From the NCBI GenBank assembly GCA_041745855.1, contig JBGTIE010000737.1, positions 1 to 35,026 of the forward strand: DNA of 35,026 nt, read 5' to 3'. The position numbers and the translations under genes were made by a program. This DNA is from Lysobacterales bacterium. GTDB taxonomy: Bacteria; Pseudomonadota; Gammaproteobacteria; Xanthomonadales; SZUA-5. Below are positions 5,169 through 35,026 of this stretch, piece by piece. The notes under the pieces were generated by a model that saw nothing but the letters and a program-made list of their open reading frames with translations, was not told the DNA's origin and did no database searches. How positions within the stretch are numbered: position 1 is the stretch's first letter; the number at the start of each line of letters is the position of its first letter.

Positions 5169-5254
5169 CGGACACCTCCTGTTTGAGACCCAATCATGAG
5201 CCCCACCCACGACAGTTCCCGTCGCCAGCACGCAATCCGGAGCGCCGCAGCGCT

Positions 5255-14700: not shown

Positions 14701-15325
14701 GCAGCACCCTTGCGTCTGGCATCGCCAGCACCGCCTCGACCAGGGCGGTCAACTTCTGCAGGTCGGACTTTTCGCCTGCGATCACCGGCAGATCATCGGC
14801 GGAACTGCCTAGAAAACGCAGGCGCCAGTAGTCCTGCACGCACTCGCGCACCAGCGCCGGCTCGTCGACAATCTCGCCGAGCACGAAGGGTGCGCCAGAA
14901 TTGAACGGGAAGTCGGTCAGCACGCGCCGACAGAAGCCGTGAATGGTCGAGATCGGTGCCAGATCGATATCGGCCAGTGCCGTTCGCAGCCGAACCAGCA
15001 GACGTTCGCGCCCCTCGGTGCGTGCGTGCCGGTCCAGAAAGTCCGTCAGCTGGATATCCGGCAGCGTGCTCGCCGTGTCGCCAACTCGGGTTAGGTACGT
15101 CTCGGCGCTGAGCAAGCGCAGACGAATTCGCGCCTTCAGTTCCTGCGCCGCCGCCTCGGTGAAGGTGGTCACCAGAATCTGCCGCACCGCCAGACCGCGC
15201 TCGATCAGCAAACGCAGGTAGAGCAGGGCGATGTTGTAGGTCTTGCCCGTACCGGCACTGGCTTCGATCAACGTCGCGCCGGCCAGATCCATGCTGCGCC
15301 AGTCCAGTTCGGCCGGCTTGCTCAT
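11711..15325 (-). CDS. recB: Exodeoxyribonuclease V beta subunit RecB (helicase-nuclease)
   Basis: UvrD-type motifs (ASAGTGKTYNIA, IDEFQDTD), 1204 aa. C-terminal RecB nuclease motif GFVDLVF...YHVLDYKTN. ATGA overlap with recC at 15322-15325. Confidence 0.95.
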   Translation of the reverse strand: MSKPAELDWRSMDLAGATLIEASAGTGKTYNIALLYLRLLIERGLAVRQILVTTFTEAAAQELKARIRLRLLSAETYLTRVGDTASTLPDIQLTDFLDRHARTEGRERLLVRLRTALADIDLAPISTIHGFCRRVLTDFPFNSGAPFVLGEIVDEPALVRECVQDYWRLRFLGSSADDLPVIAGEKSDLQKLTALVEAVLAMPDARVLQPASNCFDIPQPLRAPHGPTALRALLADTALFNMKARTLRSLLETFAAYVERNSGEGATITEAFEGMEKLTEYLAANKLEDQTSNDRPGALASHPLIQALQRWVKAQRHQQDLNLALLSADAVRFVAAELPRRLEQRRETTFSRLIETVHERLHGAQGEALARHLADVWPAALIDEFQDTDGRQWEIFRRIHLARMFHDPSTATNVHETSGPGKDAGAWTSARSLILIGDPKQSIYAFRGGDIHTYLGVCNALPEDRILSIRHNYRSHPELLTALNRLYALASATAFAASGIKYVEVQPGEPDKWTNGNPPLQLRLLQTEANNKGDRDEQVLTACANDIATLLNRAGAQDKAERIAPGQIAVLLDTNAQIRKLRAQLIARGVPVVGAGKADVLNTEWADDLQLLLHALIHPNDSYALRGALATRLLGMTAAELSLMAAEESRWERQLERFAAWRALWDSRGILAAIEAIVLEQAPRLLSAPDGERALTDLRHIGEVLQEHAAECFGGHELYARLIQLRRDGADAHEAGREMQLRIESEAQRVQLLTIHASKGLEFPVVFVPMAWRYRKPPVHDARKSIARFHDSENRRCLDLGSADFDAHKLQEQREGLQERMRQLYVAVTRAVRATHLYAFDDLSPSEDSTDHERGALEVLLGAALHQRGSWEALATAIPGLAINRENAAESRYREHADRPPARTSRAPLPDVRPYYGLYSFSSLVRHLPTATDSLRAAEDEPAFEQSPVMDLDDVPHPALVALQQIKGPRFGNAVHDLLESGRGEMDFALQTDRIAAALEDHAVRLPDDVSSSLLTEIATLLDRTVQTQLAPGLRLAHLSVQDQRAEFEFAFSLEGARWDRLPRILAKHGLSSWWPASGGPVVLNGLMKGFVDLVFAWDGRYHVLDYKTNFLGVSLSDYGQQRLEDAMQTHHYGLQALLYSVALHRYLGRRLDDYAPARDLGDCWYVFVRAVGLSAGAGIWRRRFSTELIEEMDRMFETAEVLA

Positions 15326-18300
15326 GACTGGCTCCCGGACCAGGCCGTGCCCTGCAGCAGTTCCATGTGGAGCGCCGCCAACTCGGTGAACCGCCGGTGT
15401 GCTGGCGTCCCCGCTTGCAGGAAGCTGTCATTGGCGGCCAGGACACGGTTGTAGCCCGGACTGTAATCGCGCTCGCCGGTGCCGAAGTCGGGCGCCCAGA
15501 CCTTGCGGGCCTTGCCCAGCGGATCATTCTTTCCCTCCGCCAATTCCAGGGCATAGGCGAAGCTGGTCGCCGGAAAATAGCTGCCGGCGGTCGTTTCCGC
15601 GGTCAGATACTGCTCCAGCAGCGTGCTCAGACTGGCGCGCAGCAACGCCGGATCGTCCGGGAACTGGTCCAGATCGTGCCGCACGCAGCGCAGTTCCTTC
15701 TTTATCGTTTTCAGATACATCAATGCCACTCGGCAGCGGCAATCGGGTCGGCTGATCCGCAAGGCCGCCCACTGCAGAAACAGTGGCAGCAGCTTCGAGT
15801 AATTCACGCTCTTCGAATTGACAACCTTCACCAGCCACAGCTCGTCGCCACTGCGATACACCTCGGTCAGTTCGCCAATGACCCGCAAACCTGCGATGTC
15901 CAGATCAATCGCTACCGGCGCAGCCTCGGCCGCACCCTGCGCAAAGGGCGGCAGGCTGCGGACGCCATCCAGCAGTACTTGGGCCTCTTCGCGCAAGGCC
16001 TCATAGGCCCTTTCGCCCAGCGCGCCTGCCGGCAACTGGCCGGAATAAAGCAGCTGCGCCGGCGGCTGCGCCGGGATCTCCCGCCGGCCCGCGGCAATCG
16101 TCTGCCCCAACAGCAACAATGGCGTTTGGTCGAGCGTTTCCCTGCTGCTGGTCAGTGGCTCCACATCGGTATCGCCATCCTCACTGAGCGTTTCCCGCGA
16201 CAGCGCCAGGGCATGCAGACAGAGCCACTGCGCCGGCTTGGCATAGAAGTCGCAGACGGACCGCAACTCGACCGCCGCGGCGGCGCTGGCGTGCGGAAGC
16301 CGGGGTGCGTCTTGCAGGAACACCCAGTCCTGGTCGGCCGATTGGCGGCACGCGGCGGCGAATTCCATGGAGTAGGAAAACCAGCGCGGATAAGTGTCGG
16401 CCGTAGCCCCGGCCGGCAGGAAATAGCGCGCGTCGAAAGGCTGCAGTGCATGTCGGAGCAGCCAGGGCCGGTCGATCTGCGGATCGGATTCGTCGATCTC
16501 ATGCACCTGATCCAGAAAGCGCATCAACTCGGCCAGCGGCAGCGCCGGGTTGCGCGGCTTGCCGTCCTGCACGCCCTCGCCGACCCAACTCAAGTGGATC
16601 GCATCGCGGGCGCTCATCAGCGCTTCAAGGAAGAGATAGCGATCCTCCATCCGGTTGACCCGATCTCCCAGCCGCGGATGTTGCTGCATCAGGTCCAGTT
16701 GGTTGTCGCTACGGACGCGCGGATACTCACCGTCATTCAATCCCAGCAGCGCAATCACCCGAAACGGAATCGCGCGTTGCGGCACCATTCCGCAGAAAGT
16801 GATGCCCCCGGCCAGGAAAGGTTGCCGTTCGGGCACCCCGTCCAGCGCCTGGCCCAAGGCCTCGTGAACCACGGCCCATTTCACCACCGGATCCACCCCG
16901 GCGTTGTCGGCTTCCCGTCCCAGCCCCGTCACGACCCGTTCCAAGGCGGTCAGCGCCGCCTGTTCGTCGGCGTCTTGCCAATCAGCCAGGAACAGCCCTT
17001 CTATCCAGATCCGCAGGCACTTGCTCCACTCGCTCAGCGGGCGCGGCGTTCCGGTCTGCTCGCGCCAGTCACGCAGCAGATCCAGCAGCGCCCACAATGC
17101 CGCTAATCCCTGTGCGTCGGGGCCGTTGACCGGGTCGGCCGGCAGCATGCCATCGAGCAGCCATTCGCCGCCTTCCCGCCCAAGCACGAAGCCCGCGGCC
17201 ATCCGGTCGAATCCGAAGTCAAAACTGTTGGCGCCGACTTCGGCCGCGCCAAAGTCGGCCTTCATCGGGCCATCCAGCCCCCAGGCGACATGGCTGCGCT
17301 GCAACCAGCGCTCCACCGCCGCCAGTTGCGAGCTGTCCAGCTTCAGCCGTCGCATGACCGCCGGCAGACTCAGCAAAGCAAGCACCTGCGAGCGCGTGAT
17401 GCGTTGAGTTGGCAACTCCAGCAACTGCGCAAAGGCAGTCAGCAAGGGATGGCTGCGGCTGAGCGCCACATCGGCCAGATGAAAGGGCAAGACTTCACCG
17501 GAGCGCCCGGGCTGACCGAACACCGCCGGAATCAGCGGCGCGTACACGGCCATGTTGGGCGCCATCACAACGATCTGCCGCGGCTGCAGATCCGGTTGCC
17601 GCGTCAACTGGTCCAGCAGCGCATCTTTCAGCACTTCCAACTCGCGCAAGCGCGTGTGGCAAAGGTGGATTCTCAGCGTAGCGTCGGCGCGCGCTGCATC
17701 CGGCGGCGCGGTTGACCAACTCGGTTGCAGGGTGCGGATGCTGTCCTGAAGCTGCTGCAGCAATCGCGAAGGCGCCTGCTCCGCCTGCAGTTCGGCATCC
17801 ACGCAGTCGCGATCGTCACTTGCCGAATCCAGTGCATTGAGCAGCAGCGAATAATGCTGACCCAGCCGTCCCAACGAGGCCAACAACGGATGTTTCAACG
17901 CCAGAAAGGCGCCGCCGTCCAGTGATGTGGCGAACTGGTCGCGGCGCACCCGCAGGTCTTCCCAAAGTTCCCGGCAGGGGTCAGGGAAGTACACATGGAC
18001 ATCGCGGCTGACCGAAAGCTGCTGCAGCGCCGTCAACACATCCGGCGGCAGATGGCTCAGGCCAAACACATGCAGCGCCGGCTGGTCCGGGTCGGCAGGC
18101 ATCGTGGAGAGCCGTTCGAGCAGTCGGCGCATGCGCTGACCACGATGGCCCTGGCCTATGCCCTGCAGTATTCGTCGCCACAGCTGACCCTGCCAATGGC
18201 CGAGGACCGGCATCGCCGGATCCGCGGCCGCCTCTCCAAGCCCCCAAAGGCTCAACCAGTCGCGCCGATAAACCAGGTACTGACCGTACAGACCGGCCAG

Positions 18301-18696
18301 TCGATCGGCCAACTGGAAGCGTCGCCGACCTGAGTCCGCCCCGCCCAGATAGGCCGCCACCTCGCCGTCATCCAGTTCGGCCAGCAATTCGTAAATCCGC
18401 CAGCGCAGCGCCGGTCGACGGTAGGGAAGGATCGCGATTGCCGCACTCCCCAGCACTGACCGCGCCAGCATGTCCAGCCACTCGCTCGGAAGCAGCATGT
18501 CCAGATTCGCCGCCACCCGCGGCAGCGACGCCAGCCGCCGCTCAGCCAGCCACAGCGTCAGCCAGCGCTTCATCCCCAGATGTCCCACCAACACCGTCTG
18601 CCCGGCCAGCGCCGATCGAGGCCGCTGCCTGTGCAAACGCGCCGCCAGCATGTCAGCCAGCGATTCGATTCTGCTGCTGCGGTAGATATGGAGCAT
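15322..18696 (-). CDS. recC: Exodeoxyribonuclease V gamma subunit RecC
   Basis: 1124 aa with the typical N-terminus MLHIYRSSRIESLADML. First gene of the coupled recC-recB-recD operon. Confidence 0.93.
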   Translation of the reverse strand: MLHIYRSSRIESLADMLAARLHRQRPRSALAGQTVLVGHLGMKRWLTLWLAERRLASLPRVAANLDMLLPSEWLDMLARSVLGSAAIAILPYRRPALRWRIYELLAELDDGEVAAYLGGADSGRRRFQLADRLAGLYGQYLVYRRDWLSLWGLGEAAADPAMPVLGHWQGQLWRRILQGIGQGHRGQRMRRLLERLSTMPADPDQPALHVFGLSHLPPDVLTALQQLSVSRDVHVYFPDPCRELWEDLRVRRDQFATSLDGGAFLALKHPLLASLGRLGQHYSLLLNALDSASDDRDCVDAELQAEQAPSRLLQQLQDSIRTLQPSWSTAPPDAARADATLRIHLCHTRLRELEVLKDALLDQLTRQPDLQPRQIVVMAPNMAVYAPLIPAVFGQPGRSGEVLPFHLADVALSRSHPLLTAFAQLLELPTQRITRSQVLALLSLPAVMRRLKLDSSQLAAVERWLQRSHVAWGLDGPMKADFGAAEVGANSFDFGFDRMAAGFVLGREGGEWLLDGMLPADPVNGPDAQGLAALWALLDLLRDWREQTGTPRPLSEWSKCLRIWIEGLFLADWQDADEQAALTALERVVTGLGREADNAGVDPVVKWAVVHEALGQALDGVPERQPFLAGGITFCGMVPQRAIPFRVIALLGLNDGEYPRVRSDNQLDLMQQHPRLGDRVNRMEDRYLFLEALMSARDAIHLSWVGEGVQDGKPRNPALPLAELMRFLDQVHEIDESDPQIDRPWLLRHALQPFDARYFLPAGATADTYPRWFSYSMEFAAACRQSADQDWVFLQDAPRLPHASAAAAVELRSVCDFYAKPAQWLCLHALALSRETLSEDGDTDVEPLTSSRETLDQTPLLLLGQTIAAGRREIPAQPPAQLLYSGQLPAGALGERAYEALREEAQVLLDGVRSLPPFAQGAAEAAPVAIDLDIAGLRVIGELTEVYRSGDELWLVKVVNSKSVNYSKLLPLFLQWAALRISRPDCRCRVALMYLKTIKKELRCVRHDLDQFPDDPALLRASLSTLLEQYLTAETTAGSYFPATSFAYALELAEGKNDPLGKARKVWAPDFGTGERDYSPGYNRVLAANDSFLQAGTPAHRRFTELAALHMELLQGTAWSGSQS

Positions 18697-18880
18697 CCGT
18701 CAGTCCCCCTGCTGGACCGGCCACTGGTACGGACTGTAACAGTCGGCTTCGAGCCCTCCGATAGTCCGCTCAGAGACGACAGATTCTGTCGTAGCAATGG
18801 CGATACTCGGCGGGTCCAGCAGCATCGAGAGATCGCATGACCAGTTTTCAGTCGACCAATCGCCCCTTGTCTGCTATAGC
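18654..18880. repeat. Direct repeat DR-L: recC codons 1-14 plus about 185 nt of recC leader/upstream region
   Basis: 18654-18746 matches 23495-23587 at 89/93 by hand alignment. The rest aligns more loosely (about 70 %) with 23588-23720. Confidence 0.85.
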
Positions 18881-18947
18881 CCAGTCAGGAACTATTGCAG
18901 CAGCGCCGCAAGGCGCATCCGATCAGCGCATGCACAGGGGAGCATGA

Positions 18948-19790
18948 ATGACTGAAGCACTGCAGCGTCTGTGTCGGGACAATCATCTTGCGAAGGCCTT
19001 TCTGAGCCTGGCTAATGGTAGCGACGGCACCAGTCGCGCCAGCACATTCAACGATTTTCACCGCACGCTGAGCAGTGATGGCTACATGCTCGGTCACGAT
19101 GAATCCCTGGACTTGATGCGCGAGTTGGAATCGGCAGGCGCAGGCGTGCTCCACGATGCCGATCAGCCGCATTCGGCACGGATCGAGTGGAAGCCGGATC
19201 TGGCCACGGTCGCAGCGTTGGCCCTGGGAGTGCCGGCACGACAAGCACAAGTCACCTCGCATCCGAATGGGTACGATGCATCGCCGGCTCTTGCACCCCA
19301 GCCCACATCGCTGAACCCGGCGGGGCGGGAGTCAGGCAAGTTCAATCTGCCCTCAGGCGCGTCGATAGAGATCAGGCTTGCGGGAACCGTGCGCGCAGAC
19401 GATCGCGAAGCCTTCCTGGACGGTGTGTTGGGTTGGCTCGCTCAGCGCCTGCTCAGTTCCCCTGCCGAGGCCGAAGTCACGCTGGTCGACGAGCCGGATG
19501 ATGAAGACGTCGAATCACAGGCTGAAATCGATGACTCGGCTGCAAGGGTGGCAGATCAGCCATTCGAAGCGCTCACCGAGCCGCTAGAGCAGGAAGTCGA
19601 CAGCCTGGGCGAACTGGCGCATCTAGTCATCGCCCGCGCGCGGAAGCGGGGCCCACATTCTGCTTCTTTGCTCACCCCGTCGAATTCTCTCCGGGCAAGC
19701 AAAATGCTACTAAGCGAATTATTTCAACCAGTTACATGCGTTTCACGTGAGGCCAGCCAATTGGGAGGTTTCAATGGAAAGTCTCTTTAG
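18948..19790 (+). CDS. Hypothetical acidic protein (280 aa)
   Basis: Long ORF with a plausible codon pattern and a D/E-rich segment (VDEPDDEDVESQAEIDDS). It overlaps the helicase start by 17 nt. No motif recognised. Confidence 0.5.
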   Translation: MTEALQRLCRDNHLAKAFLSLANGSDGTSRASTFNDFHRTLSSDGYMLGHDESLDLMRELESAGAGVLHDADQPHSARIEWKPDLATVAALALGVPARQAQVTSHPNGYDASPALAPQPTSLNPAGRESGKFNLPSGASIEIRLAGTVRADDREAFLDGVLGWLAQRLLSSPAEAEVTLVDEPDDEDVESQAEIDDSAARVADQPFEALTEPLEQEVDSLGELAHLVIARARKRGPHSASLLTPSNSLRASKMLLSELFQPVTCVSREASQLGGFNGKSL

Positions 19791-22413
19791 CTATTTTCAG
19801 GAGAATGGCTGGTCCATTGTTCATCGGGAAGAGCGCGCAGGGAGAATTGGAGAAACCTTTCCTAGCGACGATCTTGGACTGAGCGACGGCGCACGAAAGC
19901 TCATTTACGCAAACGGCATCTACGGGCACCAACGGGAAGCAATTCGAGCTTTCTCGAGCGGGGAAAACGTTGCTATAACGACAGCGACAGCGTCGGGAAA
20001 GACGTTGGTTTTTAACGTGTGTGCAGCCGAACTGCTCCTGACTGGCAATCATACGATACTCGCACTTTATCCCCTGAAGGCACTTGGGAAGGAGCAAGCT
20101 CAACGCTGGAAGGCAATGCTCAAGAAGATAGGCCTTGAGAAATCTGTCGGCTACATTGACGGCAGTGTTGGCCAGCCCGAGCGACTTCGTATCTTAAAAG
20201 AATGCCGGGTATTGGTAGGCACGCCTGACATCTTGCATGCCTGGATACTCAGGCAGGGCGGGCAGGCGGATGTCGTTAGCTTCATCAGGAGGCTTAAGCT
20301 CCTGGTGATCGACGAAGCGCATTCATACACAAGCGTCTTTGGCAGTAATGCTGCCTATGTGTTCAGGCGTTTGGAGCATGCATGCCAGAATCTCGGTGGG
20401 AGTCTTCGTTATATCGCGGCTTCGGCGACGATGGACGCACCGCTCGCGCACTTGGAGAAGCTGACCGGGCGAACTTTCCGCGAAGTAGATGAGTCAACCA
20501 ATACGGCGCCGTTAGAACCCGTCAAGTTCATATGCGTCCGTCCCGGTGGAGGTGACGGTTTAACCGCGTTGGGAAATCTGCTTTCCTGTGCGTCGGAAAT
20601 TGAAGGTGCAAAAACGATTGCATTCGTTGATAGCCGCCAGTTAGCTGAACACGCAGCGGTCATAGCCGGACGCCGGAGCGACGCGCCGCCAGACGAGTTT
20701 GAACGCGACCTTGACGAAGCGCTTGATGAATTGAAGCTGCCCAAAGGCAAAGTGTTGCCGTATCGATCTGGTTACGCGGCGCAGGATCGAGAGGCCATTC
20801 AACGAGCGCTAACAAACGGGAAACTTCGAGCTGTCGTCAGTACAAGCGCGCTTGAACTAGGTATTGATATTCCTGGGTTGAATCTTTGCATACTCTACGG
20901 AATACCACCATCAGGAAGCAGCTTTCGACAGCGCTATGGGCGCGTGGGAAGAGACGCACCCGGTACCGTAGTCATTATTGACGATGGATCTCCTCGAGCA
21001 GTCGCGATATTTAAGGACCCAAGCATGATTTGGGCGCTGCCTCTTACCAAGAGCTCGCTCTATCTTCATAATCGACAGGCGCAGTATATCCACGCGATGT
21101 GTTTGGCCTCGCAAAATGGGGAAGACCAGGCCTTTGCCAAGGCGGGGTCTTCGTCGGCACGGCAATTTTCGCGCACGGGGCTTTTCCCTGACGATTTCAT
21201 TGCATTGTGTCAAGCTGAGCATCAGGGCTCAATACCTCAGGAGTTACAATATCTCCGAGATCTGAGTGGAGATAGTCCCAATCTCTCATTCCCGCTGCGA
21301 GACATTGGGCTTCAATTTAGGATTTTGAATCCGCAGCGGTTCGGGAGAGAGACGCTTGGCGATCTTTCGCACGCCCAGTTGATGCGTGAGGCCTACCCGG
21401 GCGCTATTTATTATCATATCGGAACCGCTTATCGTGTATTCCGAGTGTCACTGCGCGAGAGGGAGGTTCTCGTTCGCCGTGAAAAGCATTACTTCACTTC
21501 CGCAAAGAGGCTACCCAGCAAAATCTTCCCGGAATTCCGCAGCGACAAAGTCTTCTGTGATTTGACCCAAGGGACGATGAGGGTAGTTGAATGCGGATTG
21601 AATATTCGTGAGACTCTTGTTGGTTTTCGGGAGTTCCGCGGCGGGAACAGGTTCGATGTTGATTACCCGCTGGAACCCGCGCTCAGACTGTACTTTGATC
21701 AGAAGTACTTCTCTCGGAACTGGTCGACCTCCGGCGTCATTCTGACCCACCCGCAGCTCGCGATTGACGAAGTCGATCTCACCGTCGTCGCGAGCTTTGT
21801 GTTAGATGCGTTCTTGATGGAAATTCCGTTCGACCGTCAAGATGTTGGTGCAGGGGTAGACAAGATCCAGGTCGGCGAGCGTGGGCATCGTGAGGGCCAG
21901 TACTTTATATGCCTATACGATAAGCAGGCTACGCTGAGACTTTCCGGCGCAATTACGGAGAAAGGTGCCCTTAAGAAAGTTCTCGAGCGCGCACATGATT
22001 TGGCGAGTGGTATTGCCGGCATCGACGGAGGCCCGTCGGCAGCTGTCCTGAACGTACTGGAAGCGCTTGCGATGGAGTCGGCTGAGTTGCCTGTGACGAA
22101 TTCGGAGGCGGCGCTCTTGCCAACTTCAGATCGTTACGTTCCGGTTATTCGACCAGGCTCCATTGGGATCGATCCTACGCGCCAAGGCGAGGAGTTCCAC
22201 GTCACGAATGTCCTTTGGCACCCGATGTTTGGCCTCGCTTATCATGGCACTTATGTATCGGAGGAGCGTCGTGCAGTGGGTATAAATGGCAACGGACCTG
22301 CTCAAACCTTCGTGGCAGCTGAAAAGCTGCAGGGTATTCCTGGCTTGTCGTCAATGTCTTGGTATGACAAAGTAAAGGCGGCCGTGGTTAATGAAATCGA
22401 GGGTGAGTTTTAG
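19774..22413 (+). CDS. SF2 DEAH-box helicase, MrfA/YprA-like, with DUF1998-like C-terminal region lacking cysteines (879 aa)
   Basis: GGGAGG lies 5 nt upstream of ATG 19774. Motif I ATASGKT (19984-20004), motif II DEAH (20311-20322), motif VI QRYGRVGR. Post-helicase blocks AYPGAIYYHIGTAYRV...HYFTS and DRQDVGAG...QYFICLYDK follow. Confidence 0.85.
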   Translation: MESLFSYFQENGWSIVHREERAGRIGETFPSDDLGLSDGARKLIYANGIYGHQREAIRAFSSGENVAITTATASGKTLVFNVCAAELLLTGNHTILALYPLKALGKEQAQRWKAMLKKIGLEKSVGYIDGSVGQPERLRILKECRVLVGTPDILHAWILRQGGQADVVSFIRRLKLLVIDEAHSYTSVFGSNAAYVFRRLEHACQNLGGSLRYIAASATMDAPLAHLEKLTGRTFREVDESTNTAPLEPVKFICVRPGGGDGLTALGNLLSCASEIEGAKTIAFVDSRQLAEHAAVIAGRRSDAPPDEFERDLDEALDELKLPKGKVLPYRSGYAAQDREAIQRALTNGKLRAVVSTSALELGIDIPGLNLCILYGIPPSGSSFRQRYGRVGRDAPGTVVIIDDGSPRAVAIFKDPSMIWALPLTKSSLYLHNRQAQYIHAMCLASQNGEDQAFAKAGSSSARQFSRTGLFPDDFIALCQAEHQGSIPQELQYLRDLSGDSPNLSFPLRDIGLQFRILNPQRFGRETLGDLSHAQLMREAYPGAIYYHIGTAYRVFRVSLREREVLVRREKHYFTSAKRLPSKIFPEFRSDKVFCDLTQGTMRVVECGLNIRETLVGFREFRGGNRFDVDYPLEPALRLYFDQKYFSRNWSTSGVILTHPQLAIDEVDLTVVASFVLDAFLMEIPFDRQDVGAGVDKIQVGERGHREGQYFICLYDKQATLRLSGAITEKGALKKVLERAHDLASGIAGIDGGPSAAVLNVLEALAMESAELPVTNSEAALLPTSDRYVPVIRPGSIGIDPTRQGEEFHVTNVLWHPMFGLAYHGTYVSEERRAVGINGNGPAQTFVAAEKLQGIPGLSSMSWYDKVKAAVVNEIEGEF

Positions 22414-22415
22414 CC

Positions 22416-23432
22416 ATGACAGAAAAGCAGGTTGTTGTCCGCAGGCTGGACTTGCCGGGAGCTATAGCTTGCCTGAAGGAAGCGCAAATAGTCGCGGAGC
22501 ATGCCAGTGTGATCGTTGTTGATTTTGGGGGATGCGAGTGGGCGGAGCCACTGGGCATGCTGGTTTTCGGCGCGTCGCTACGAGACCTTCGTGCAGAAAC
22601 TAAGAAAATAAGACCCGAAGTTAAGTTTCGTGCAATCGGATATGAGGGGCGCGGCTATCTCGCACACATGGGTTTGTTCAAGCTCTTCGGGCTCAATTAC
22701 GGCAAAGCACCCGATGAAGCGGAGGGCGGTTCGCGCTATGAACCAATCCGGTTCATTGATCTTGCCGAGCTTGAGCGAAATGCGGCCGAGCAATATCAGG
22801 ATACGCACGAATATATTGAGAAAACCTGTCAAGGGATGGCCAGCTTGCTTGTTCAAGGTGGCTCTGAGATTCTGTCTGAAACTCTGGGGTACTGCTTGCG
22901 AGAGATTGTCAGGAATGTCTTGGAGCATGCCCAGGTAAGTGGCTTGTGGTATTGCGGGCAATATTGGCCTCAGAAAGACAAGGTAGAGCTGGGTCTTTTC
23001 GATCTTGGGATGGGTGTTCGACGTGCATTGTCGCGCAACCCGCACATTGCGGTCGAATCCGACCAAGACGCGATTCGATTGGCAATCAAGCCAGGAATTT
23101 CCGGAGTGGTTTTTCAGGGTGCGCGGCAAATGCGCAATGATGGATGGCAGAATTCTGGCTTTGGCTTATATATGACGAGTCAGATCGCGGCGCAGTATGG
23201 GCAGTTTCGTTTGGGGAGCGGCGATTCGCTGATGACGTTTGACGCCAAAGGGCAGGAATTTCAGGAATTCAGGTTGAAAGGAACGGCGGTGTCGATAAGC
23301 CTCCGTCCAAGCAAGGTCACCAAGCTGGCCGAGCGGCTTTCGGAGCTTCGGAAGGCTGCGAAGTCGGGTAGTTCGGGTGATGACGGGACGACCGTTCGCT
23401 CGGCGTCGGCCTATGGTCGGGGAAAGACGTAA
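22416..23432 (+). CDS. GHKL-type (histidine-kinase-like) ATPase with STAS-like N-terminal region (338 aa)
   Basis: N-box EIVRNVLEH, G1 box DLGMG and G2 box NSGFGLY. N-terminal segment VIVVDFGGCEWAEPLGMLVFGASL. The start is 2 nt after the helicase stop. Confidence 0.75.
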   Translation: MTEKQVVVRRLDLPGAIACLKEAQIVAEHASVIVVDFGGCEWAEPLGMLVFGASLRDLRAETKKIRPEVKFRAIGYEGRGYLAHMGLFKLFGLNYGKAPDEAEGGSRYEPIRFIDLAELERNAAEQYQDTHEYIEKTCQGMASLLVQGGSEILSETLGYCLREIVRNVLEHAQVSGLWYCGQYWPQKDKVELGLFDLGMGVRRALSRNPHIAVESDQDAIRLAIKPGISGVVFQGARQMRNDGWQNSGFGLYMTSQIAAQYGQFRLGSGDSLMTFDAKGQEFQEFRLKGTAVSISLRPSKVTKLAERLSELRKAAKSGSSGDDGTTVRSASAYGRGKT

Positions 23433-23494
23433 ATGCCCTGTGCCTGCATGAGGGCGGTGATCGGCTTCGCCTCGGTTCCAGCGCGTGGTAAGGC

Positions 23495-23720
23495 CAGCCA
23501 GCGATTCGATTCTGCTGCTGCGGTAGATATGGAGCATCGGTGAGTCCCCCTGCTGGAACTGCCACTGGTACGGACTGTAACAGTCGGGGTCGAGACGGCC
23601 GATTGTCGGGGGCGAGGCGACAGATTTGGTCGCCGCAGTATCGATACTTCGGCCAGTTGTAGATTTCACAGCGCGCGGGGGAGATTTTGGTCGACCGATT
23701 GGCCGTGGTCTGATATAGAG
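23495..23720. repeat. Direct repeat DR-R: orphan copy of recC codons 1-14 (23496-23537, minus strand) plus leader/upstream region
   Basis: The minus strand encodes MLHIYRSSRIESLA, then diverges from recC. See DR-L. Confidence 0.85.
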
Positions 23721-23782
23721 AAGACTGCGCTTTGATGTCCTAGGCTGCCACCGCGCCAAAGACCAACAATGTAGGGATTCCC

Positions 23783-26700
23783 ATGCCAGCTGAAACTAAA
23801 GGTCGCGACCTCTTCATCGTAGACAACAGCGTGTCAGGCTGGACCTGCCTTCGCTATCTGGAGGAATGGGCTGGCATTGCGAAGAGCTTTGACATTGCAA
23901 CTGGCTACTTCGAGATCGGTGCGTTGCTCGCCCTCGATGGTAAGTGGCAGCAATTGGAGAAGATCAGGATCCTGATGGGCGCGGAAACAATGCAATTTTC
24001 TCGGAAAGCATTGCTTGAAGCTGTGCGGTCCCGCGCAGCAGAAGTATTGGATCGCAGCATTGAGTGCGACAAGACGGCAAACCCCTTCCTGAACAACGTG
24101 CCGGCAATTTTGGAGGCACTCCGCTCACGCCAGATCGAGTGCCGTGTCTACGACAAGGACAAGTTCCATGCAAAGGTATACATCACTCATGCCAAGTTGG
24201 AGGTTGTCGGGTCGCAGGCTCTCGTCGGATCCAGTAACTTCACCCCTCCTGGACTTACCCAAAACATCGAACTGAATATACAGGTGCAGAGTGCGCGCGA
24301 GGTGGCACAGCTGCAGGAATGGTTCGAGGTGCACTGGAACGACGCTAGCGACATCACTGACACTGTCATCGAGACGATCGATCGTCACACGCGCCCTTAC
24401 AAACCATTCGAGGTGTACGCGAAGGCGCTACAGGAGTTCTTCCGCGGTCATGAATTGACAGCAAGCGAGTGGGACGAGACTCGCTCGAAGATGTTTCCGC
24501 ATATCGACCGCTATCAGAAGGAAGCCTACTGGGCGCTGATGAAGATTGCGCGCCAGCACGGTGGCGCGTTCCTCTGCGACGGCGTCGGGCTCGGCAAGAC
24601 CTTCGTCGGCCTGATGCTGATCGAACGCCTGGTGCTGCACGAAGGAAAGCGCGTCGTGCTTTTTGCACCAAAGGCAGCGAAGGAGGGAGTGTGGGAGCCG
24701 CATTTGCGTGACTGGTTACCACACATCGGCGGTGTAGGTGGCGGCGCTGACTTTAGCAACCTGGCTGTCTTCAGCCACACGGACCTCGGCCGCAAAGGCG
24801 ACTTTCCCGAGCGTTTTCGAAGGATTGCGGAGTTGGCGGACGTCGTTGTGATCGATGAAGCACACCACTTTCGCAATCCGGGTCGCCCACGTAGGGAAGA
24901 CGACGACGTTGAGCCATCCCGCTACCATCGTCTTTATGACCTGCTCGACAGCACGGCACGGCCAAAGACACTCTTCATGCTCACTGCAACGCCAATCAAC
25001 AACCGACTGAGCGACTTCCGGCATATGGCAGAGCTGTTCACGCGCCGGGACCAGACGTATTTCGCGCGAACGCTGGGCGTCAACAATCTGACTGCGCACT
25101 TCAACCAAGTGGAAAAGGCGCTCCGAAGCCAGGTCGGCCATGACGTGAGCGATGTCGCCGAACACATCACCGAAGCTCAGGAGATTCTGGCGAGCGATGA
25201 GGTCTTCCGTCATCTGGTAGTCCAGCGTAGTCGCGCCTATGCACGAGAAAGCCAGATCCGCGAGACAGGCAAGGCGGCCGCCTTTCCGGATCGAAGATCT
25301 CCCCAGGTGGCCGGTTATTCAATACGGAAGAGTTACGGACGTCTGCTCGACATGTTCGAGAACGCTTTCCAAGGGAAGAATCCGCTTTTTGCATTGCCGA
25401 TGTACTACCCGTTGGCTTGGTACAAGGGGCCAGATACCAGTATTGACCCGCTGGAGCAGGGTCGGCAGAAGCAGGTTGTTGGTCTCATTCGAACCAACTT
25501 TCTCAAGCGCTTCGAAAGCTCGGTCGTGGCGTTCGAGCTTTCCTGCGACCGACTGCTACAGAAGCTCATGGCGTTTCTGGAGGTACATAGTAAGACAGTA
25601 ACCGAGAAGAAGAAGCTGGAGCGCTGGAAAACGGACAATGCCGAGGCGCTCGGCTACGCGCGTCAGAGGCAGCTGGAGCTTTGGGGTGATAGCCGCGACG
25701 AGTCCGAAGACGAAGACATTGTGCCTCAGGAAATGCTTGATGCCGTCGAGCGTCTTGACCGCAATGAGTACGATTTGTCAGCCATGATGGCAGAAACGTT
25801 TCGGGACCTCGACCAGCTAACTCACTTTGTAAGTGAAGCGAAGAAGTTCCAGCCAAAGCACGACGACAAGCTGCAGAAGCTCATCCGCCTACTCAAAACC
25901 AAGGATCTCGCCGGCCAAAAAGTGTTGATCTTCACCGAGTTCGCCGACACAGCGCGCTACCTGAAGCGCGAACTGGACCGGGCCGGCATCGACGGCGTTG
26001 CCCAGGTGGACAGCGCAACCAAGGCCAACCGAGCCGATGTCATTCAGCGCTTCGCGCCTTACTACAACAGCACTTCCTCGAAGGCGCTAGCGAAGAAGGG
26101 GGACCCTGAGACCCAGATACTCATCTCGACCGATGTTCTCTCGGAAGGCCTGAACCTTCAGGATGCTTCCCGGATGATCAACTACGACATCCACTGGAAC
26201 CCGGTCCGCCTGATGCAGCGCATCGGCCGCGTGGACCGGCGCATGAATCCGGAAGTCGAGAAACGATTTATCGCCGATCACCCCGAAGTCGCCTCGTCGC
26301 GCGGGAAAGTGAGCTTCTGGAACTTTCTGCCGCCCGACGAGTTGAATGCAATTCTTACTCTCTACACAAAAGTTACCCAGAAGACTCTGCTGATTTCCAA
26401 GACCCTCGGCATCGAGGGTAAGAAGCTGCTCACACCTGACGACGACTTCGACGCTCTCAGGGAGTTCAACCACGCCTATGAAGGCACAAAGACCGCCGTT
26501 GAGGACATGCATCTTGAGTTTCAGTCGCTGCTGCAGGCTGACCCGGAGCTGGAGTCCCGCCTGCGACGGCTGCCAGGCGCCACTTTTAGCGGTCGCAAGT
26601 GTCCTGCGAAGGGTGCGCGAGGAGTGTTCTTCTGCTACGCGCTCCCGGCGCTCGACAAGGAAGCCGGCGAATTCACACAAGAGGCCGGTACCACCCGCTG

Positions 26701-26932
26701 GTACCTCTTCGATCTCGAACGGGACGCAATTCTGGAGGACCCTGGCGAGATCGTTGGCAGCATCCGCTCCAAACCCGAGACGCCGCGCAGGTGCACTACC
26801 GGGCAGAAGACCCTCGTCGAGCTCCGCGCAAAGCTTGAGAAGCACATCAAGAACACCTACCTGAGGCGGGTCGACGCGCCGGTCGGGGTGAAGCCGGCGC
26901 TTCGCTGCTGGATGGAACTCAACGAGGGATAG
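23783..26932 (+). CDS. PLD-family nuclease domain fused to SNF2-family helicase (1049 aa)
   Basis: N-terminal HKD-type motif FHAKVYITHAKLEVVGSQALVGSSNFT (about 24167-24244). SNF2 motifs DGVGLGKT (24581-24601), VIDEAHHFRN (DEAH 24854-24865) and LTATPINN. C-lobe LIFTEFADTARYL, STDVLSEGLNLQD and HWNPVRLMQRIGRVDR. Confidence 0.9.
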   Translation: MPAETKGRDLFIVDNSVSGWTCLRYLEEWAGIAKSFDIATGYFEIGALLALDGKWQQLEKIRILMGAETMQFSRKALLEAVRSRAAEVLDRSIECDKTANPFLNNVPAILEALRSRQIECRVYDKDKFHAKVYITHAKLEVVGSQALVGSSNFTPPGLTQNIELNIQVQSAREVAQLQEWFEVHWNDASDITDTVIETIDRHTRPYKPFEVYAKALQEFFRGHELTASEWDETRSKMFPHIDRYQKEAYWALMKIARQHGGAFLCDGVGLGKTFVGLMLIERLVLHEGKRVVLFAPKAAKEGVWEPHLRDWLPHIGGVGGGADFSNLAVFSHTDLGRKGDFPERFRRIAELADVVVIDEAHHFRNPGRPRREDDDVEPSRYHRLYDLLDSTARPKTLFMLTATPINNRLSDFRHMAELFTRRDQTYFARTLGVNNLTAHFNQVEKALRSQVGHDVSDVAEHITEAQEILASDEVFRHLVVQRSRAYARESQIRETGKAAAFPDRRSPQVAGYSIRKSYGRLLDMFENAFQGKNPLFALPMYYPLAWYKGPDTSIDPLEQGRQKQVVGLIRTNFLKRFESSVVAFELSCDRLLQKLMAFLEVHSKTVTEKKKLERWKTDNAEALGYARQRQLELWGDSRDESEDEDIVPQEMLDAVERLDRNEYDLSAMMAETFRDLDQLTHFVSEAKKFQPKHDDKLQKLIRLLKTKDLAGQKVLIFTEFADTARYLKRELDRAGIDGVAQVDSATKANRADVIQRFAPYYNSTSSKALAKKGDPETQILISTDVLSEGLNLQDASRMINYDIHWNPVRLMQRIGRVDRRMNPEVEKRFIADHPEVASSRGKVSFWNFLPPDELNAILTLYTKVTQKTLLISKTLGIEGKKLLTPDDDFDALREFNHAYEGTKTAVEDMHLEFQSLLQADPELESRLRRLPGATFSGRKCPAKGARGVFFCYALPALDKEAGEFTQEAGTTRWYLFDLERDAILEDPGEIVGSIRSKPETPRRCTTGQKTLVELRAKLEKHIKNTYLRRVDAPVGVKPALRCWMELNEG

Positions 26933-26936
26933 GACC

Positions 26937-34627: not shown

Positions 34628-34762
34628 GCTGATGCCTTGGGTTGCGGTTGTTTAGGGTAAGCGATGTGGCCGATCTCGAACGCTTTCTTGTACATCGACG
34701 GCCCCTTCGCTGTGCTCCGGTGAGATCATGGTAGGGGGTCGGGGCGACGGGACTTGTCGTTG

Positions 34763-35026
34763 ATGTGGAGTGCGGTGGCTTTGATATGGAGTGCGGTGGC
34801 TTGCCACCGCTCTTAATATGGAGTGCGGTGGCTTGCCACCGCTCTGCTGTTGGCAGCTTGCTGCCGCTGTTGCTGTTTGCCGGTGGCGCGCCTGGCCAGA
34901 GACCTCGTGCAGTTTGCGATGGGAAGTTGGGGGTTGGAAGGGCTTCGAGGCGGGGGTGGGGCGAGAGCCAGGGCGGCAGCAAGCTGCACAAGAGCAGAGC
35001 GGTGGCAAGCCACCGCACTCCAGAAT
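34763..35026. repeat. Composite REP cluster R6 (forward REPs 34763-34872, spacer, inverted REP 34972-35026; runs off the window)
   Basis: Read directly. The spacer shares cttcgaggcggggg...gagagccagggcggcagcaagctg with cluster R2. Confidence 0.9.

What the first reader, a model, noticed from the sequence alone, without database searches (positions are those of the whole stretch)
18948..23432. Three-gene cassette (acidic hypothetical + MrfA/YprA-like helicase with Cys-free DUF1998-like tail + STAS-like GHKL ATPase): candidate undescribed defence module
Seen: three co-directional genes are tightly coupled, with a 17-nt overlap at 19774-19790 and a 2-nt gap at 22413/22416. GC drops to about 50 % (30/60 in 20041-20100) against 73 % (44/60) in a recC sample (16021-16080). 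The helicase has SF2 motifs I, II (DEAH) and VI. After the RecA lobes it has the AYPGAIYYH.G.AYRV...HYFTS and D.GAG...QYFICLYD blocks that I associate with DUF1998-bearing helicases (MrfA/YprA, DrmB, DruE). From the last Cys at ...QYFICLYD to the C-terminus there is no cysteine at all, so the four-Cys zinc motif that characterises DUF1998 is absent and a novel tail replaces it. The partner has GHKL N, G1 and G2 boxes behind a STAS-like N-terminus, an anti-sigma-kinase-like layout. Inference: a helicase plus an ATP-driven GHKL switch in a foreign cassette next to other defence genes fits a nucleic-acid-sensing immune module. I do not recognise this gene combination as any named system.
Basis: partly seen in the sequence, partly recalled or inferred. 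Interest (0 to 1): 0.8.

Follow-up and report, generated by a model that had tools for sequence, protein, structure and literature searches.

The report
Helicase plus sensor-kinase-like defence gene pair

Summary
The unit is two genes, not three. Gene 1 (18948-19790) has no homologue among 5.8 billion proteins. A 93%-identical copy of the cassette elsewhere shares only 19673-23483.

The helicase (19774-22413) has the MrfA/YprA fold along its whole length. It has no Pfam DUF1998/MZB hit and no four-cysteine cluster, and it carries an extra 140-residue tail.

The partner (22416-23432) is a STAS + GHKL protein. It is collinear with VapK, the ssDNA-activated kinase of the VapKSC system described in 2026. 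It has no STAS substrate gene and no toxin gene beside it.

Both families mostly occur alone. In one helicase clade every locus examined has the kinase-like gene directly downstream (window plus 10 loci). None of 13 informative sister-group loci has it. The two gene trees agree. The same kinase-like family also sits next to a second Cys-less helicase clade and a Druantia DruE helicase.

Every paired locus lies among defence genes, and PADLOC 2.0 has no model for the pair.

I read it as an unnamed helicase-kinase defence module. The ssDNA-sensing mechanism is inferred and the kinase target is unknown.

The parts
19673..19773 (+). Upstream leader of the conserved unit, with the RBS GGGAGG 6 nt before the ATG. 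It overlaps the 3' end of orphan gene 1.
   Evidence: 93% nucleotide identity to L168/L169 starts at window 19673. Sequence read. No sigma-70 consensus match on the + strand here.
19774..22413 (+). MrfA/YprA-like SF2 DEAH helicase, 879 aa, Cys-less. The mechanical ORF list starts at GTG 19747; ATG 19774 is the start supported by the RBS and by homologues.
   Evidence: Pfam DEAD and Helicase_C. TIGR03817 4.6e-68, below its cut-off. phmmer to MrfA 6znp 8.3e-45. AF2 pLDDT 85.1 and Foldseek 6znp_A E=4.4e-47, TM 0.74 over 821 columns.
19912..21033 (+). RecA1 + RecA2 motor core (aa 47-420): motif I ATASGKT, motif II DEAH (aa 180-183), motif VI QRYGRVGR (aa 386-393). There is no large insertion between the lobes.
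21034..21288 (+). Helical domain after RecA2 (aa 421-505). It holds 5 of the 19 positions fixed only in GHKL-linked helicases, which makes it a candidate partner interface.
   Evidence: Secondary structure. Clade-specific positions L422, H432, M442, D451, D474. The interface role is inference only.
21289..21753 (+). Beta-rich OB/CON-like region (aa 506-660), including the REAYPGAIYYHIGTAYRV...EKHYFTS block.
   Evidence: Aligned to MrfA 523-565. Beta strands. Domain names follow Roske et al. as summarised in PMC12458937.
21754..21993 (+). DUF1998/MZB-like region without the four zinc cysteines (aa 661-740): DRQDVGAG...QYFICLYDKQATLRLSG.
   Evidence: No Pfam MZB hit. Cys positions. Motif correspondence with canonical C.C..GC..C sequences. 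hhalign places the motifs in register but is weak, E=0.049.
21994..22410 (+). Extra C-terminal beta-rich domain (aa 741-879) of unknown fold class. It is conserved in both the GHKL-linked and the closest stand-alone helicases.
   Evidence: heltail HMM hits in L001-L016, L018, L020-L024, L026, L028 and L029. Invariant P794, Y823, G857. No PDB sequence match.
22416..23432 (+). VapK-like STAS + GHKL (HATPase_c_2-type) putative Ser/Thr kinase, 338 aa.
   Evidence: Family alignment A2. AF2 pLDDT 88.9. Foldseek hits to SpoIIAB and STAS domains. hhalign to VapK: probability 94.5%, E=7.5e-8, 231 collinear columns. 21 of 34 members hit HATPase_c_2.
22416..22790 (+). STAS-like domain (aa 1-125). Glu44-Pro45 sits at the N-cap of helix 2, where SpoIIAA/VapS carry the phospho-serine. 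Trp42 aligns with the VapK Phe in CRFLRP.
   Evidence: Secondary structure. STAS fold hits 6jhk, 1thn_B and 3oir. Alignment to VapK. VapS and VapK sequences. The functional reading is inferred.
22866..23306 (+). GHKL ATP-binding domain (aa 151-297): N box E163/N167/H171, G1 D196-G200, G2 N246-L251.
   Evidence: Invariant columns. SpoIIAB fold match.
23307..23429 (+). C-terminal helix and disordered tail with family-invariant Ser331 and near-invariant Ser334 (consensus AS.AS..L). Possible phospho-acceptor or pseudo-substrate.
   Evidence: Invariant columns. pLDDT below 50 for residues 321-338. The function is speculative.
18948..19790 (+). Orphan acidic ORF ('gene 1', 280 aa). It has an RBS and a coding-like GC1>GC3>GC2 pattern, but it is not part of the conserved module.
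   Evidence: No homologue. No Pfam, PADLOC, NCBIfam or PDB hit. Only its last 118 nt lie inside the unit shared with L168.
18654..18885 (.). Left copy of the direct repeat: the first 14 codons of recC plus about 190 nt upstream.
23495..23725 (.). Right copy of the direct repeat: a recC 5' remnant (MLHIYRSSRIESLA, then divergent). Together the two copies bracket the 4.6-kb insert.
   Evidence: The Logan contig L005 breaks inside this repeat.

Best explanation
A horizontally acquired two-gene defence-island module, spanning about 19673-23483.

Shown:
- Gene A is a MrfA/YprA-fold SF2 helicase. It keeps the motor motifs and the OB-CON-DUF1998-like canopy fold, has lost the zinc cysteines, and has an extra C-terminal domain.
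- Gene B is a STAS+GHKL protein of the anti-sigma-kinase type, collinear with VapK.
- The two genes are translationally coupled, co-inherited within one helicase clade, and always embedded among defence genes.

Inferred by analogy with MrfA (a 3'->5' ssDNA translocase) and CapK/VapK (kinases switched on by ssDNA bound between the STAS and GHKL domains):
- The helicase loads on invading or processed DNA and produces or holds ssDNA.
- That ssDNA activates the kinase-like partner.
- The partner phosphorylates a target that is not encoded as a separate STAS protein. Candidates are the helicase itself, the kinase's own conserved Ser-rich tail, or a host or phage protein. The outcome would be to switch on or tune the response.

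Gene 1 is a local orphan ORF and not a component.
For: Composition:
- Helicase.
- Partner.

Coupling:
- A 2-nt gap or overlap between the two genes recurs in the window, L001, L006, L198 and L199.
- All loci of the paired helicase clade carry the GHKL gene directly downstream: the window plus L001, L006, L088, L091, L093, L104, L168, L197, L198 and L199. None of 13 informative stand-alone loci does: L008-L011, L013-L016, L018, L020, L022, L195 and L196.
- The paired clade is monophyletic, including when 119 database hits are added. The same two subclades appear in the GHKL tree.

Mobility as a unit: L168 shares only 19673-23483 at 93% identity, with different flanks.

Independent recruitment of the same GHKL family to other YprA-type helicases:
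- L030 and L090, a second Cys-less clade with the GHKL gene on the opposite strand.
- L146, a DruE3-type helicase with an MZB domain and a 2-nt gap.

Defence context:
- Window: Type ISP-like RM and a GajB-like helicase.
- L088 and L199: type I RM.
- L092: BrxL, PglZ, PsyrTA, MzaB.
- L104: HerA-like.
- L001: Mokosh-like protein.
- L006: SIR2-APAZ/pAgo plus an integrase.

Mechanistic precedent: PMC13373217.
Against: - Nothing here has been tested experimentally.
- No STAS substrate gene and no toxin or nuclease effector sits beside the kinase-like gene, unlike CapKS and VapKSC. The output of the system is therefore unknown.
- The link to VapK is remote (24% identity, hhalign 94.5%). The link to CapK covers only the N-box to G1 region.
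- ssDNA binding could not be modelled with these tools. The putative stacking position (W42) is not conserved in the family; it varies among W, R, K, F, H, Y and T.
- Both families function alone in most genomes, so each protein may have its own autonomous activity.
- MrfA itself is a repair helicase.
- The NJ trees are rough distance trees without support values.
Confidence: 0.5

Rival explanations
1. A DNA-damage or repair module rather than immunity. A MrfA-like repair helicase carried on mobile DNA would be regulated by a damage (ssDNA)-sensing kinase. The benefit would be repair or stress tolerance, and any phage effect would be incidental.
For: - The closest solved relative is the mitomycin-repair helicase MrfA.
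- The helicase lacks the insertions typical of defensive YprA clades described in PMC12458937.
- CapK responds to repair by-products.
- The nearest helicase relatives have no conserved neighbour, like the 'YprA only' repair branch.
- In the window the insert sits beside recBCD.
Against: - The position beside recC results from an insertion bracketed by repeats.
- No MrfB/YprB-like exonuclease partner was seen in any locus.
- Every paired locus lies among RM, BREX, pAgo, Mokosh-like or HerA genes or next to integrases. Even the stand-alone relatives L195 and L196 sit beside GmrSD or type III RM genes.
- The patchy, horizontally transferred distribution and low GC3 point to accessory DNA.
Confidence: 0.2
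2. The GHKL protein is not a kinase that signals onward. It would be an anti-sigma-like ATP-dependent clamp that binds and holds the helicase inactive, a partner switch, and releases it when a trigger is met.
For: - The best fold matches are anti-sigma factors that act by binding a partner.
- The cis STAS domain has Glu-Pro at the phospho-site, so it cannot be the acceptor.
- No substrate gene is present.
- Clade-specific helicase residues cluster in one helical domain, aa 422-474.
Against: - The same GHKL family is usually encoded without any helicase: 43 of 51 metagenomic loci, 25 viral contigs and a 6.8-kb plasmid. It must therefore have a helicase-independent activity.
- Its characterised relatives CapK and VapK are true kinases.
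- All catalytic boxes are invariant.
Confidence: 0.15
3. The pair is one arm of a larger DISARM/ARMADA-like array that also includes the downstream PLD-SNF2 helicase, the methyltransferase and the UvrD/GajB-like helicase (19.7-33.6 kb).
For: - The gene content parallels ARMADA and DISARM as described in PMC12458937: a YprA-like helicase, a BrxHII/DrmD-like SNF2 helicase, a PglX-like methylase and a GajB-like helicase.
- The SNF2 protein hits DrmD and BrxH models and carries a PLD domain like DrmC.
Against: - A recC-5' repeat copy separates the two blocks.
- The helicase-GHKL unit moves alone in L168. It occurs elsewhere without the SNF2 and MTase genes.
- The 879-aa helicase has contiguous RecA lobes, so it lacks the BrxA-like, beta-barrel and MarR-like insertions that define the ARMADA/Druantia lineage.
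- The methylase carries a Type ISP specificity domain and hits a Type IIG model at 2.5e-200, so the downstream genes form a self-sufficient RM-like system.
Confidence: 0.07
4. Two independent single-gene defence or accessory genes that merely lie next to each other.
For: Each family is mostly found alone.
Against: - Fixed order and a 2-nt gap or overlap across distant phyla.
- Window plus 10 loci with the pair against 0 of 13 sister loci.
- Congruent subclades in both trees.
- Joint transfer as a 3.8-kb unit.

Confidence: 0.06

Closest known systems
VapK of the VapKSC toxin-antitoxin defence system, and CapK of the CapKS regulator (Chambers et al., EMBO J 2026, PMC13373217)
   Same: - STAS domain followed by an anti-sigma-type GHKL kinase domain in one polypeptide of about 300-370 aa.
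- Collinear profile match to VapK over 231 columns.
- A Pro occupies the position after the STAS phospho-site in both VapK (R-P) and this family (E-P).
- A GFF motif is shared with CapK (NRLGFF against HMGFF).
- Found in defence islands.
   Different: - No downstream STAS substrate (CapS or VapS) and no VapC toxin.
- No N-terminal HTH, unlike CapK.
- A conserved Ser-rich C-terminal tail that was not described for CapK or VapK.
- The partner here is an upstream YprA-type helicase.
- Sequence identity is about 24%, and the match to CapK is limited to the N-box to G1 region.
MrfA/YprA (DUF1998) helicase family, B. subtilis MrfA, PDB 6ZNP
   Same: - SF2 DEAH core, N-terminal strand region, helical domain, and beta-rich OB/CON region.
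- DUF1998-like fold.
- Best sequence and fold match in the PDB.
   Different: - The four-Cys zinc cluster is absent and Pfam MZB does not match.
- An extra 140-aa C-terminal domain.
- No MrfB exonuclease partner.
- Located in defence islands.
Defensive YprA-family systems: DISARM (DrmAB), Dpd (DpdJ/DpdF), Druantia (DruE), ARMADA/BRIGADE/TALON (Bell et al. 2025, PMC12458937)
   Same: - A YprA-family helicase is the central motor of a defence-island operon.
- Loss of the four cysteines has a precedent in Dpd.
- The same GHKL family is found 2 nt downstream of a DruE3-type helicase in L146.
   Different: - PADLOC models of these systems match only the RecA lobes.
- No BrxA-like, zinc-module or MarR-like insertions.
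- None of the partner genes of those systems is present (DrmC/DrmM, the Dpd biosynthesis genes, DruH).
- That paper mentions no kinase or GHKL partner.
SpoIIAB/SpoIIAA and RsbW/RsbV partner-switching modules
   Same: The GHKL domain superposes on SpoIIAB (TM 0.70-0.72). The N-terminal domain superposes on STAS antagonists.
   Different: - The two domains are fused in one chain.
- The STAS phospho-serine is replaced by Glu.
- No sigma factor or phosphatase gene is nearby.

Membership tests
MrfA/YprA (DUF1998) helicase family | SF2 DEAH/DExH motor with YprA-specific sequence similarity beyond the RecA lobes | tested here: met
   phmmer to 6znp 8.3e-45 over aa 47-576. TIGR03817 4.6e-68 over aa 58-593, at 230 bits against a curated cut-off of 874.
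MrfA/YprA (DUF1998) helicase family | OB-CON-DUF1998 canopy fold | tested here: met
   Foldseek match of the AF2 model (pLDDT 85) to full-length MrfA: E=4.4e-47, TM 0.74 normalised to MrfA, 821 alignment columns. No per-domain superposition was available.
MrfA/YprA (DUF1998) helicase family | Four-cysteine zinc cluster / Pfam PF09369 (MZB, formerly DUF1998) | tested here: not met
   No PF09369 hit at E<=0.1. No Cys after residue 713 and no CxxC in the last 330 aa in any of 36 relatives. hhalign to canonical DUF1998 gives E=0.049.
MrfA/YprA (DUF1998) helicase family | MrfB/YprB exonuclease partner (MrfAB branch) | tested here: not met
   No conserved neighbour other than the GHKL gene.
CapK/VapK STAS-GHKL kinases | STAS domain fused N-terminally to an anti-sigma-type GHKL kinase domain | tested here: met
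   AF2 and Foldseek. HATPase_c_2 in 21 of 34 members and STAS_2 in 1. hhalign to VapK 94.5% over both domains.
CapK/VapK STAS-GHKL kinases | Adjacent gene for a STAS-domain substrate with a conserved phospho-Ser/Thr (CapS or VapS) | tested here: not met
   Nothing is encoded between 23432 and the recC-remnant repeat. No recurrent downstream gene in 88 loci.
CapK/VapK STAS-GHKL kinases | Regulated output next door: a VapC toxin (VapKSC), or a downstream immune operon under CapS control | tested here: not met
   No PIN/VapC gene and no wHTH-STAS gene in the window or in the paired loci.
CapK/VapK STAS-GHKL kinases | Kinase activity switched on by ssDNA bound between the STAS and GHKL domains | not testable with these tools
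   This needs biochemistry or protein-DNA co-folding. The only lead is that W42 aligns with the VapK Phe in CRFLRP.
CapK/VapK STAS-GHKL kinases | N-terminal HTH domain (CapK only) | tested here: not met
   The STAS domain starts at residue 3 of the model.
DISARM | DrmA helicase + DrmB (DUF1998) + DrmC (PLD) with a DrmM methylase | tested here: not met
   DrmA models match only aa 343-413 of the helicase. The PLD and MTase genes downstream belong to a Type ISP-like unit separated by a repeat. The pair occurs elsewhere without them.
ARMADA / Druantia lineage | Large YprA homologue with a BrxA-like domain after RecA1, and a beta-barrel zinc module plus a MarR-like domain inserted in RecA2 | tested here: not met
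   879 aa. DEAD spans 61-231 and Helicase_C 321-402 with only a 90-aa linker. DruE models match short stretches only. The definition is from PMC12458937.
Shango (SngABC) | SngC helicase together with a TerB-domain SngA and an ATPase SngB | tested here: not met
   The SngC model matches only the RecA lobes, aa 59-403. No SngA or SngB hit for gene 1 or gene 3.
SpoIIAB-type partner switching | Separate STAS antagonist with a phosphorylatable Ser, plus a sigma factor | tested here: not met
   The STAS domain is fused, and Glu44-Pro45 occupies the phospho-site position. No sigma factor gene is in the insert.

The most novel reading that the evidence does not exclude
The pair is a self-contained immune system of a kind not yet described. 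A nuclease-free YprA-type helicase acts as the DNA probe. A substrate-less VapK-like kinase reads out the ssDNA or the helicase state, and phosphorylates the helicase, itself or a host or phage protein to stop infection.

The same kinase family was recruited independently to a second Cys-less helicase clade and to Druantia DruE. It may therefore be a general signalling output for YprA-family defence helicases, whose mode of action is still unclear. Its many solo copies in prophages and plasmids would then be stand-alone ssDNA-triggered abortive-infection kinases.
Probability: 0.3. Interest if true: 0.75.

Novelty: new variant of a known kind. Interest (0 to 1): 0.6.

Why it matters
YprA-family helicases are the motors of DISARM, Dpd, Druantia and ARMADA, yet what they sense and how they signal is largely open. 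STAS-GHKL kinases activated by ssDNA were described only in 2026, and only together with a STAS substrate.

This locus links the two themes:
- A compact helicase-kinase pair with no nuclease, toxin or substrate gene.
- A large family of solo relatives (701 clusters at 50% identity with E<=1e-30) carried by prophages, plasmids and defence islands.

If the pair protects against phage, it offers a small two-protein system for asking whether helicase-generated ssDNA is the alarm signal and what the kinase phosphorylates. It would also flag the DruE-linked copy (L146) as a handle on Druantia type III.

Tried and rejected
- **Gene 1 as a component.** Rejected. It has no homologue in 5.8 billion proteins, no Pfam, PADLOC, NCBIfam or PDB hit, and is absent upstream of every other pair. 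Only its last 118 nt lie in the shared unit.
- **Gene 1 or the helicase tail as the missing STAS substrate.** No support. There are no family hits and the tail is mostly beta.
- **A second conserved partner of the GHKL family.** All-against-all BLAST of the four genes on each side in 88 loci gave only the helicase as a recurrent neighbour. The -1 genes of 170-298 aa have no shared Pfam domain. One group turned out to be a GlnRS/GluRS-type tRNA synthetase, which is unlikely to be functional linkage.
- **Fusions.** N- or C-terminally extended family members showed nothing, except one C-terminal PcrA/UvrD Tudor domain.
- **PADLOC DrmA model PDLC02567.** It weakly matches gene 3 (8.4e-6).
- **Sequence-profile proof that aa 655-800 is DUF1998.** The motifs align, but E=0.049, so this rests on the fold match.
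- **Promoter and terminator scans.** Nothing above shuffled background.
- **Fold search against viral structures.** Only generic phage HATPase proteins.
- **Organism identity.** Not recoverable; the cluster look-up carried no names.
- **Literature.** Searches for a named helicase + GHKL system found none. Subscription-only papers are not covered.


Full report
**1. What is in the window**

The finding lies between recC (15322-18696, minus strand; Pfam Exonuc_V_gamma and RecC_C) and a PLD+SNF2 gene (23783-26932).

There are three co-directional ORFs at 18948-19790, 19774-22413 and 22416-23432.
- The mechanical ORF list starts the second at GTG 19747. ATG 19774 has a GGGAGG ribosome-binding site 6 nt upstream and matches the N-termini of homologues.

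The composition differs from the flanks.
- GC is 0.53-0.54 in the helicase and GHKL genes against 0.63-0.65 in recBCD.
- GC3 is 0.56-0.58 against 0.74-0.77.

Positions 18654-18885 recur at 23495-23725, at 85% identity over a gap-free 154 nt and alignable over about 230 nt.
- The repeat consists of the first 14 codons of recC plus its upstream region.
- The right copy still encodes MLHIYRSSRIESLA and then diverges.
- The 4.6 kb in between is therefore an insertion into the recC upstream region, bracketed by a duplicated target or homology segment.
- No integrase or transposase lies inside it.

**2. The unit is two genes, not three**

Gene 1 (280 aa; 42 D+E against 24 K+R) has an RBS and a coding-like codon-position GC pattern.
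- It has no homologue among 5.8 billion proteins.
- It has no hit in Pfam, PADLOC, NCBIfam or the PDB.

A metagenomic contig (L168) carries a 93%-identical copy of the cassette (helicase 96% identical at protein level).
- It shares only window 19673-23483. That is about 100 nt of leader, the helicase, the GHKL gene and about 50 nt of trailer.
- Its flanks are different: an unrelated upstream gene, and a gene that looks by eye like an IS66-family transposase downstream.

No other paired locus has a gene-1 equivalent.

**3. The helicase**

Sequence searches:
- Pfam finds DEAD (aa 61-231) and Helicase_C (aa 321-402) and nothing else.
- NCBIfam's best model is TIGR03817, the actinobacterial YprA-like 'DECH' helicase, at 4.6e-68 over aa 58-593. 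This is far below its equivalog cut-off.
- PADLOC models (BrxH, SngC, PsyrT, DpdF/J, DruE, DrmA) match the RecA lobes only.

Structure:
- An AlphaFold2 model built on 32 homologues has mean pLDDT 85.1.
- It matches full-length MrfA at E=4.4e-47, TM 0.74 normalised to MrfA, over 821 alignment columns. The next hits (Pol theta, Lhr, Hel308, Brr2) cover only the motor.

The DUF1998 question:
- The region DRQDVGAG...QYFICLYDKQATLRLSG corresponds by eye to the canonical DRxDIGG...IFIYDGxPGGxG core of true DUF1998 helicases fetched in the same scan.
- The following C.C..GC..C...KCG zinc cluster is absent.
- The last cysteine is residue 713.
- None of 36 related helicases of 860-1100 aa has a CxxC in its last 330 residues.
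- hhalign puts the two motifs in register, but only at E=0.049.
- The DUF1998-like assignment therefore rests on the fold match and collinearity, not on sequence statistics.

Residues 741-879 form an additional, mostly beta domain with no detectable relative.

The 'novel tail' reading is thus half right. The zinc module is degenerate rather than replaced, and a further domain is appended.

**4. The partner protein**

The window protein itself has no Pfam or NCBIfam hit. It belongs to a well-defined family of about 340 aa.
- The N box (E163, N167, H171), G1 (D196xGxG200) and G2 (N246-L251) are invariant.
- 21 of 34 members reach Pfam HATPase_c_2, the anti-sigma Ser/Thr kinase type. 12 reach HATPase_c and one reaches STAS_2.

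Structure:
- The AF2 model has pLDDT 88.9 and pTM 0.86.
- It superposes on SpoIIAB (TM 0.70-0.72, probability 1.0).
- Its N-terminal part superposes on STAS domains: RsbS, SpoIIAA and SulP STAS, with target-normalised TM about 0.5.

A 2026 paper (PMC13373217) describes exactly this architecture.
- CapK (HTH-STAS-GHKL) and VapK (STAS-GHKL) are kinases switched on by ssDNA, which is predicted to bind between the two domains.
- They phosphorylate a conserved serine of a separately encoded STAS protein. CapS is a repressor and VapS is the antitoxin of VapC.

I took the sequences from that paper's supplement.
- The family profile aligns collinearly with VapK over 231 columns: probability 94.5%, E=7.5e-8.
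- With CapK it aligns only over the N-box to G1 region, at 89%.

Details that are inference:
- The N-cap of STAS helix 2 is where SpoIIAA and VapS carry the phospho-serine. In this family it is Glu44-Pro45 (VapK has Arg-Pro). The cis STAS domain therefore cannot be the acceptor.
- Trp42 aligns with the Phe of VapK's CRFLRP, probably the F54 the authors mutated. This position varies in the family.
- The family ends in a disordered tail with invariant Ser331 and near-invariant Ser334.

**5. Are the two genes really linked?**

Both families mostly live apart.
- *GHKL family, metagenomes.* Of 80 loci, 51 have at least 700 nt upstream. Of these, 5 carry the Cys-less helicase directly upstream on the same strand, 1 has it divergently, 1 has a different YprA helicase (L146), and 43 have no YprA-like helicase.
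- *GHKL family, other neighbours.* No other neighbour recurs.
- *GHKL family, mobile elements.* All 25 IMG/VR viral contigs with a family member lack the helicase. Solo copies sit in a Desulfotomaculum prophage between tail and head genes, next to a short pAgo system, and on a 6.8-kb A. baumannii plasmid beside BrnTA.
- *Helicase family.* In GTDB species genomes, 11 informative full-length relatives have no GHKL gene within 10 kb and no conserved neighbour at all. Two more checked individually also have none.

Within one helicase clade the association is complete.
- The window plus L001, L006, L088, L091, L093, L104, L168, L197, L198 and L199 all have the GHKL gene immediately downstream. The spacing is typically a 2-nt gap or an overlap.
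- None of the 13 informative sister-group loci has it.
- In a distance tree the paired helicases are monophyletic. This still holds after adding 119 database hits, of which 17 fall in the clade.
- The same two subclades (window/L006/L088, and L001/L091/L104 plus L093 in the GHKL tree) appear in the GHKL tree.
- These are NJ trees without support values, so the topology is indicative only.

The same GHKL family is also adjacent to two other YprA-type helicases.
- A second, more distant Cys-less clade, with the GHKL gene on the opposite strand (L030 convergent, L090 divergent).
- A 1630-aa DruE3-type helicase with a genuine MZB/DUF1998 domain, at a 2-nt gap (L146).

Repeated independent recruitment to YprA-family motors is the strongest argument for a functional connection.

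**6. Context**

Every paired locus sits among defence genes.
- Window: a split Type ISP-like RM. It consists of PLD+SNF2, then an N6-MTase with Eco57I and Type_ISP_C domains that hits a PADLOC Type IIG model at 2.5e-200. A GajB-like UvrD helicase follows.
- L088 and L199: type I RM.
- L092: BrxL, PglZ, PsyrTA, MzaB.
- L104: HerA-like.
- L001: a Mokosh-like 1435-aa protein, with primase/D5 genes nearby.
- L006: SIR2-APAZ/pAgo and an integrase.
- L198: a Pkinase-ORC/CDC6-like gene and a methylase.

**7. Mechanism**

Shown:
- Intact motor and ATP-binding motifs.
- MrfA-like and VapK-like folds.
- Operonic coupling and co-inheritance.
- Defence-island residence.

Inferred from MrfA (a 3'->5' ssDNA translocase, as summarised in PMC12458937) and from CapK/VapK:
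- The helicase engages foreign or processed DNA and exposes ssDNA.
- The ssDNA activates the kinase-like partner.
- The partner phosphorylates a target.

No STAS substrate, toxin or nuclease is encoded with the pair, so the target and the output are unknown. Candidates are the helicase, the kinase's own Ser-rich tail, or host or phage proteins. One family member carries a PcrA/UvrD Tudor domain, which is known from PcrA/UvrD to bind RNA polymerase. That single case hints at the transcription machinery.

I put 0.5 on 'defence module in which the two proteins act together', and clearly less on the specific ssDNA-to-kinase relay.

The rivals are:
- a damage or repair module (0.2);
- an anti-sigma-like clamp on the helicase (0.15);
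- one arm of a larger DISARM/ARMADA-like array (0.07);
- mere neighbours (0.06).

**8. Comparison with known systems and novelty**

The helicase works like, and folds like, a YprA-family helicase, but it fails the family's defining zinc-cluster and Pfam test. Loss of the cysteines has a precedent in Dpd.

The partner has the architecture of CapK and VapK but fails the defining kinase-substrate gene-pair test.

The pair matches no PADLOC 2.0 system. It is not mentioned in the comprehensive YprA survey or in the CapK/VapK paper, which has no occurrence of 'helicase'. No paper in the searchable library names it.

I therefore class it as a new variant of known kinds: a new combination of two recently characterised module types. 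It remains untested experimentally.

The GHKL family is sizeable. There are 701 clusters at 50% identity with E<=1e-30 and 1970 with E<=1e-10. In annotated phage and plasmid records it is labelled only 'hypothetical' or 'ATP-binding protein'.

Noticed in passing
window 18654-18885 and 23495-23725: Direct repeat (85% over 154 gap-free nt, alignable over about 230 nt) made of the first 14 codons of recC plus its upstream region. It brackets the 4.6-kb insert. The right copy is a recC 5' remnant. There is no recombinase inside, which would fit acquisition by recombination with donor DNA that carried its own recC edge, making the recC upstream region an insertion hotspot.
   Followed up: partly
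window 23783-30956: Split Type ISP-like restriction-modification unit. The first gene is a PLD nuclease + SNF2 helicase (1049 aa; PADLOC 'HKD+Snf2' 7.6e-60). It is followed 4 nt later by a 1339-aa N6-methylase with Eco57I and Type_ISP_C specificity domains (PADLOC Type IIG 2.5e-200). Classical Type ISP enzymes are single polypeptides with an Mrr nuclease.
   Followed up: partly
window 31005-33614: An 869-aa UvrD/GajB-like helicase. Its first 270 or so residues match no family. The gene has the lowest GC in the window (0.50).
   Followed up: no
window 34760-35022: A cluster of REP-like repeats: four copies of a 32-nt unit, and 27-34-nt inverted repeats (97-100% complementary) built on GCGGTGGCTTGCCACCGC.
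   Followed up: no
L146 961-6905: A member of the STAS-GHKL family lies 2 nt downstream of a 1630-aa DruE3-type helicase (PADLOC 4e-204, with a Pfam MZB domain). This is a possible kinase-bearing variant of Druantia type III.
   Followed up: partly
L003 10001-11008; L200 4757-5788; L170-L194: Solo STAS-GHKL genes occur as cargo of mobile elements. One lies between tail and head genes of a Desulfotomaculum arcticum prophage. One is on a 6.8-kb A. baumannii plasmid next to BrnT/BrnA. Others are in 25 IMG/VR viral contigs, none with the helicase.
   Followed up: partly
protein P0297 (455 aa): One family member carries a C-terminal PcrA/UvrD Tudor domain (Pfam 1.2e-6), a domain known for binding RNA polymerase. 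This is a single-case hint about where such kinases may act.
   Followed up: no
L008-L022, L195, L196: The Cys-less helicase of about 880 aa is a broad family in its own right, found in Chloroflexota, Deinococcus, Bacillota, Thermotogae, Cyanobacteria-like lineages and others. It usually stands alone with no conserved neighbour. In the two loci inspected it sits beside GmrSD, or beside type III RM, RadC and resolvase genes.
   Followed up: partly
helicase aa 422-474 (window 21037-21195): Five of the 19 positions that are fixed in GHKL-linked helicases but differ in the stand-alone sister group fall in the short helical domain after RecA2. This is a candidate contact surface for the partner.
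   Followed up: no
window 3009-5231 (minus strand): A 740-aa protein with two AAA+ modules (Pfam AAA 2.9e-40). An equally long ORF runs on the opposite strand (2943-5186) with no family hit, which is probably a high-GC shadow ORF.
   Followed up: no
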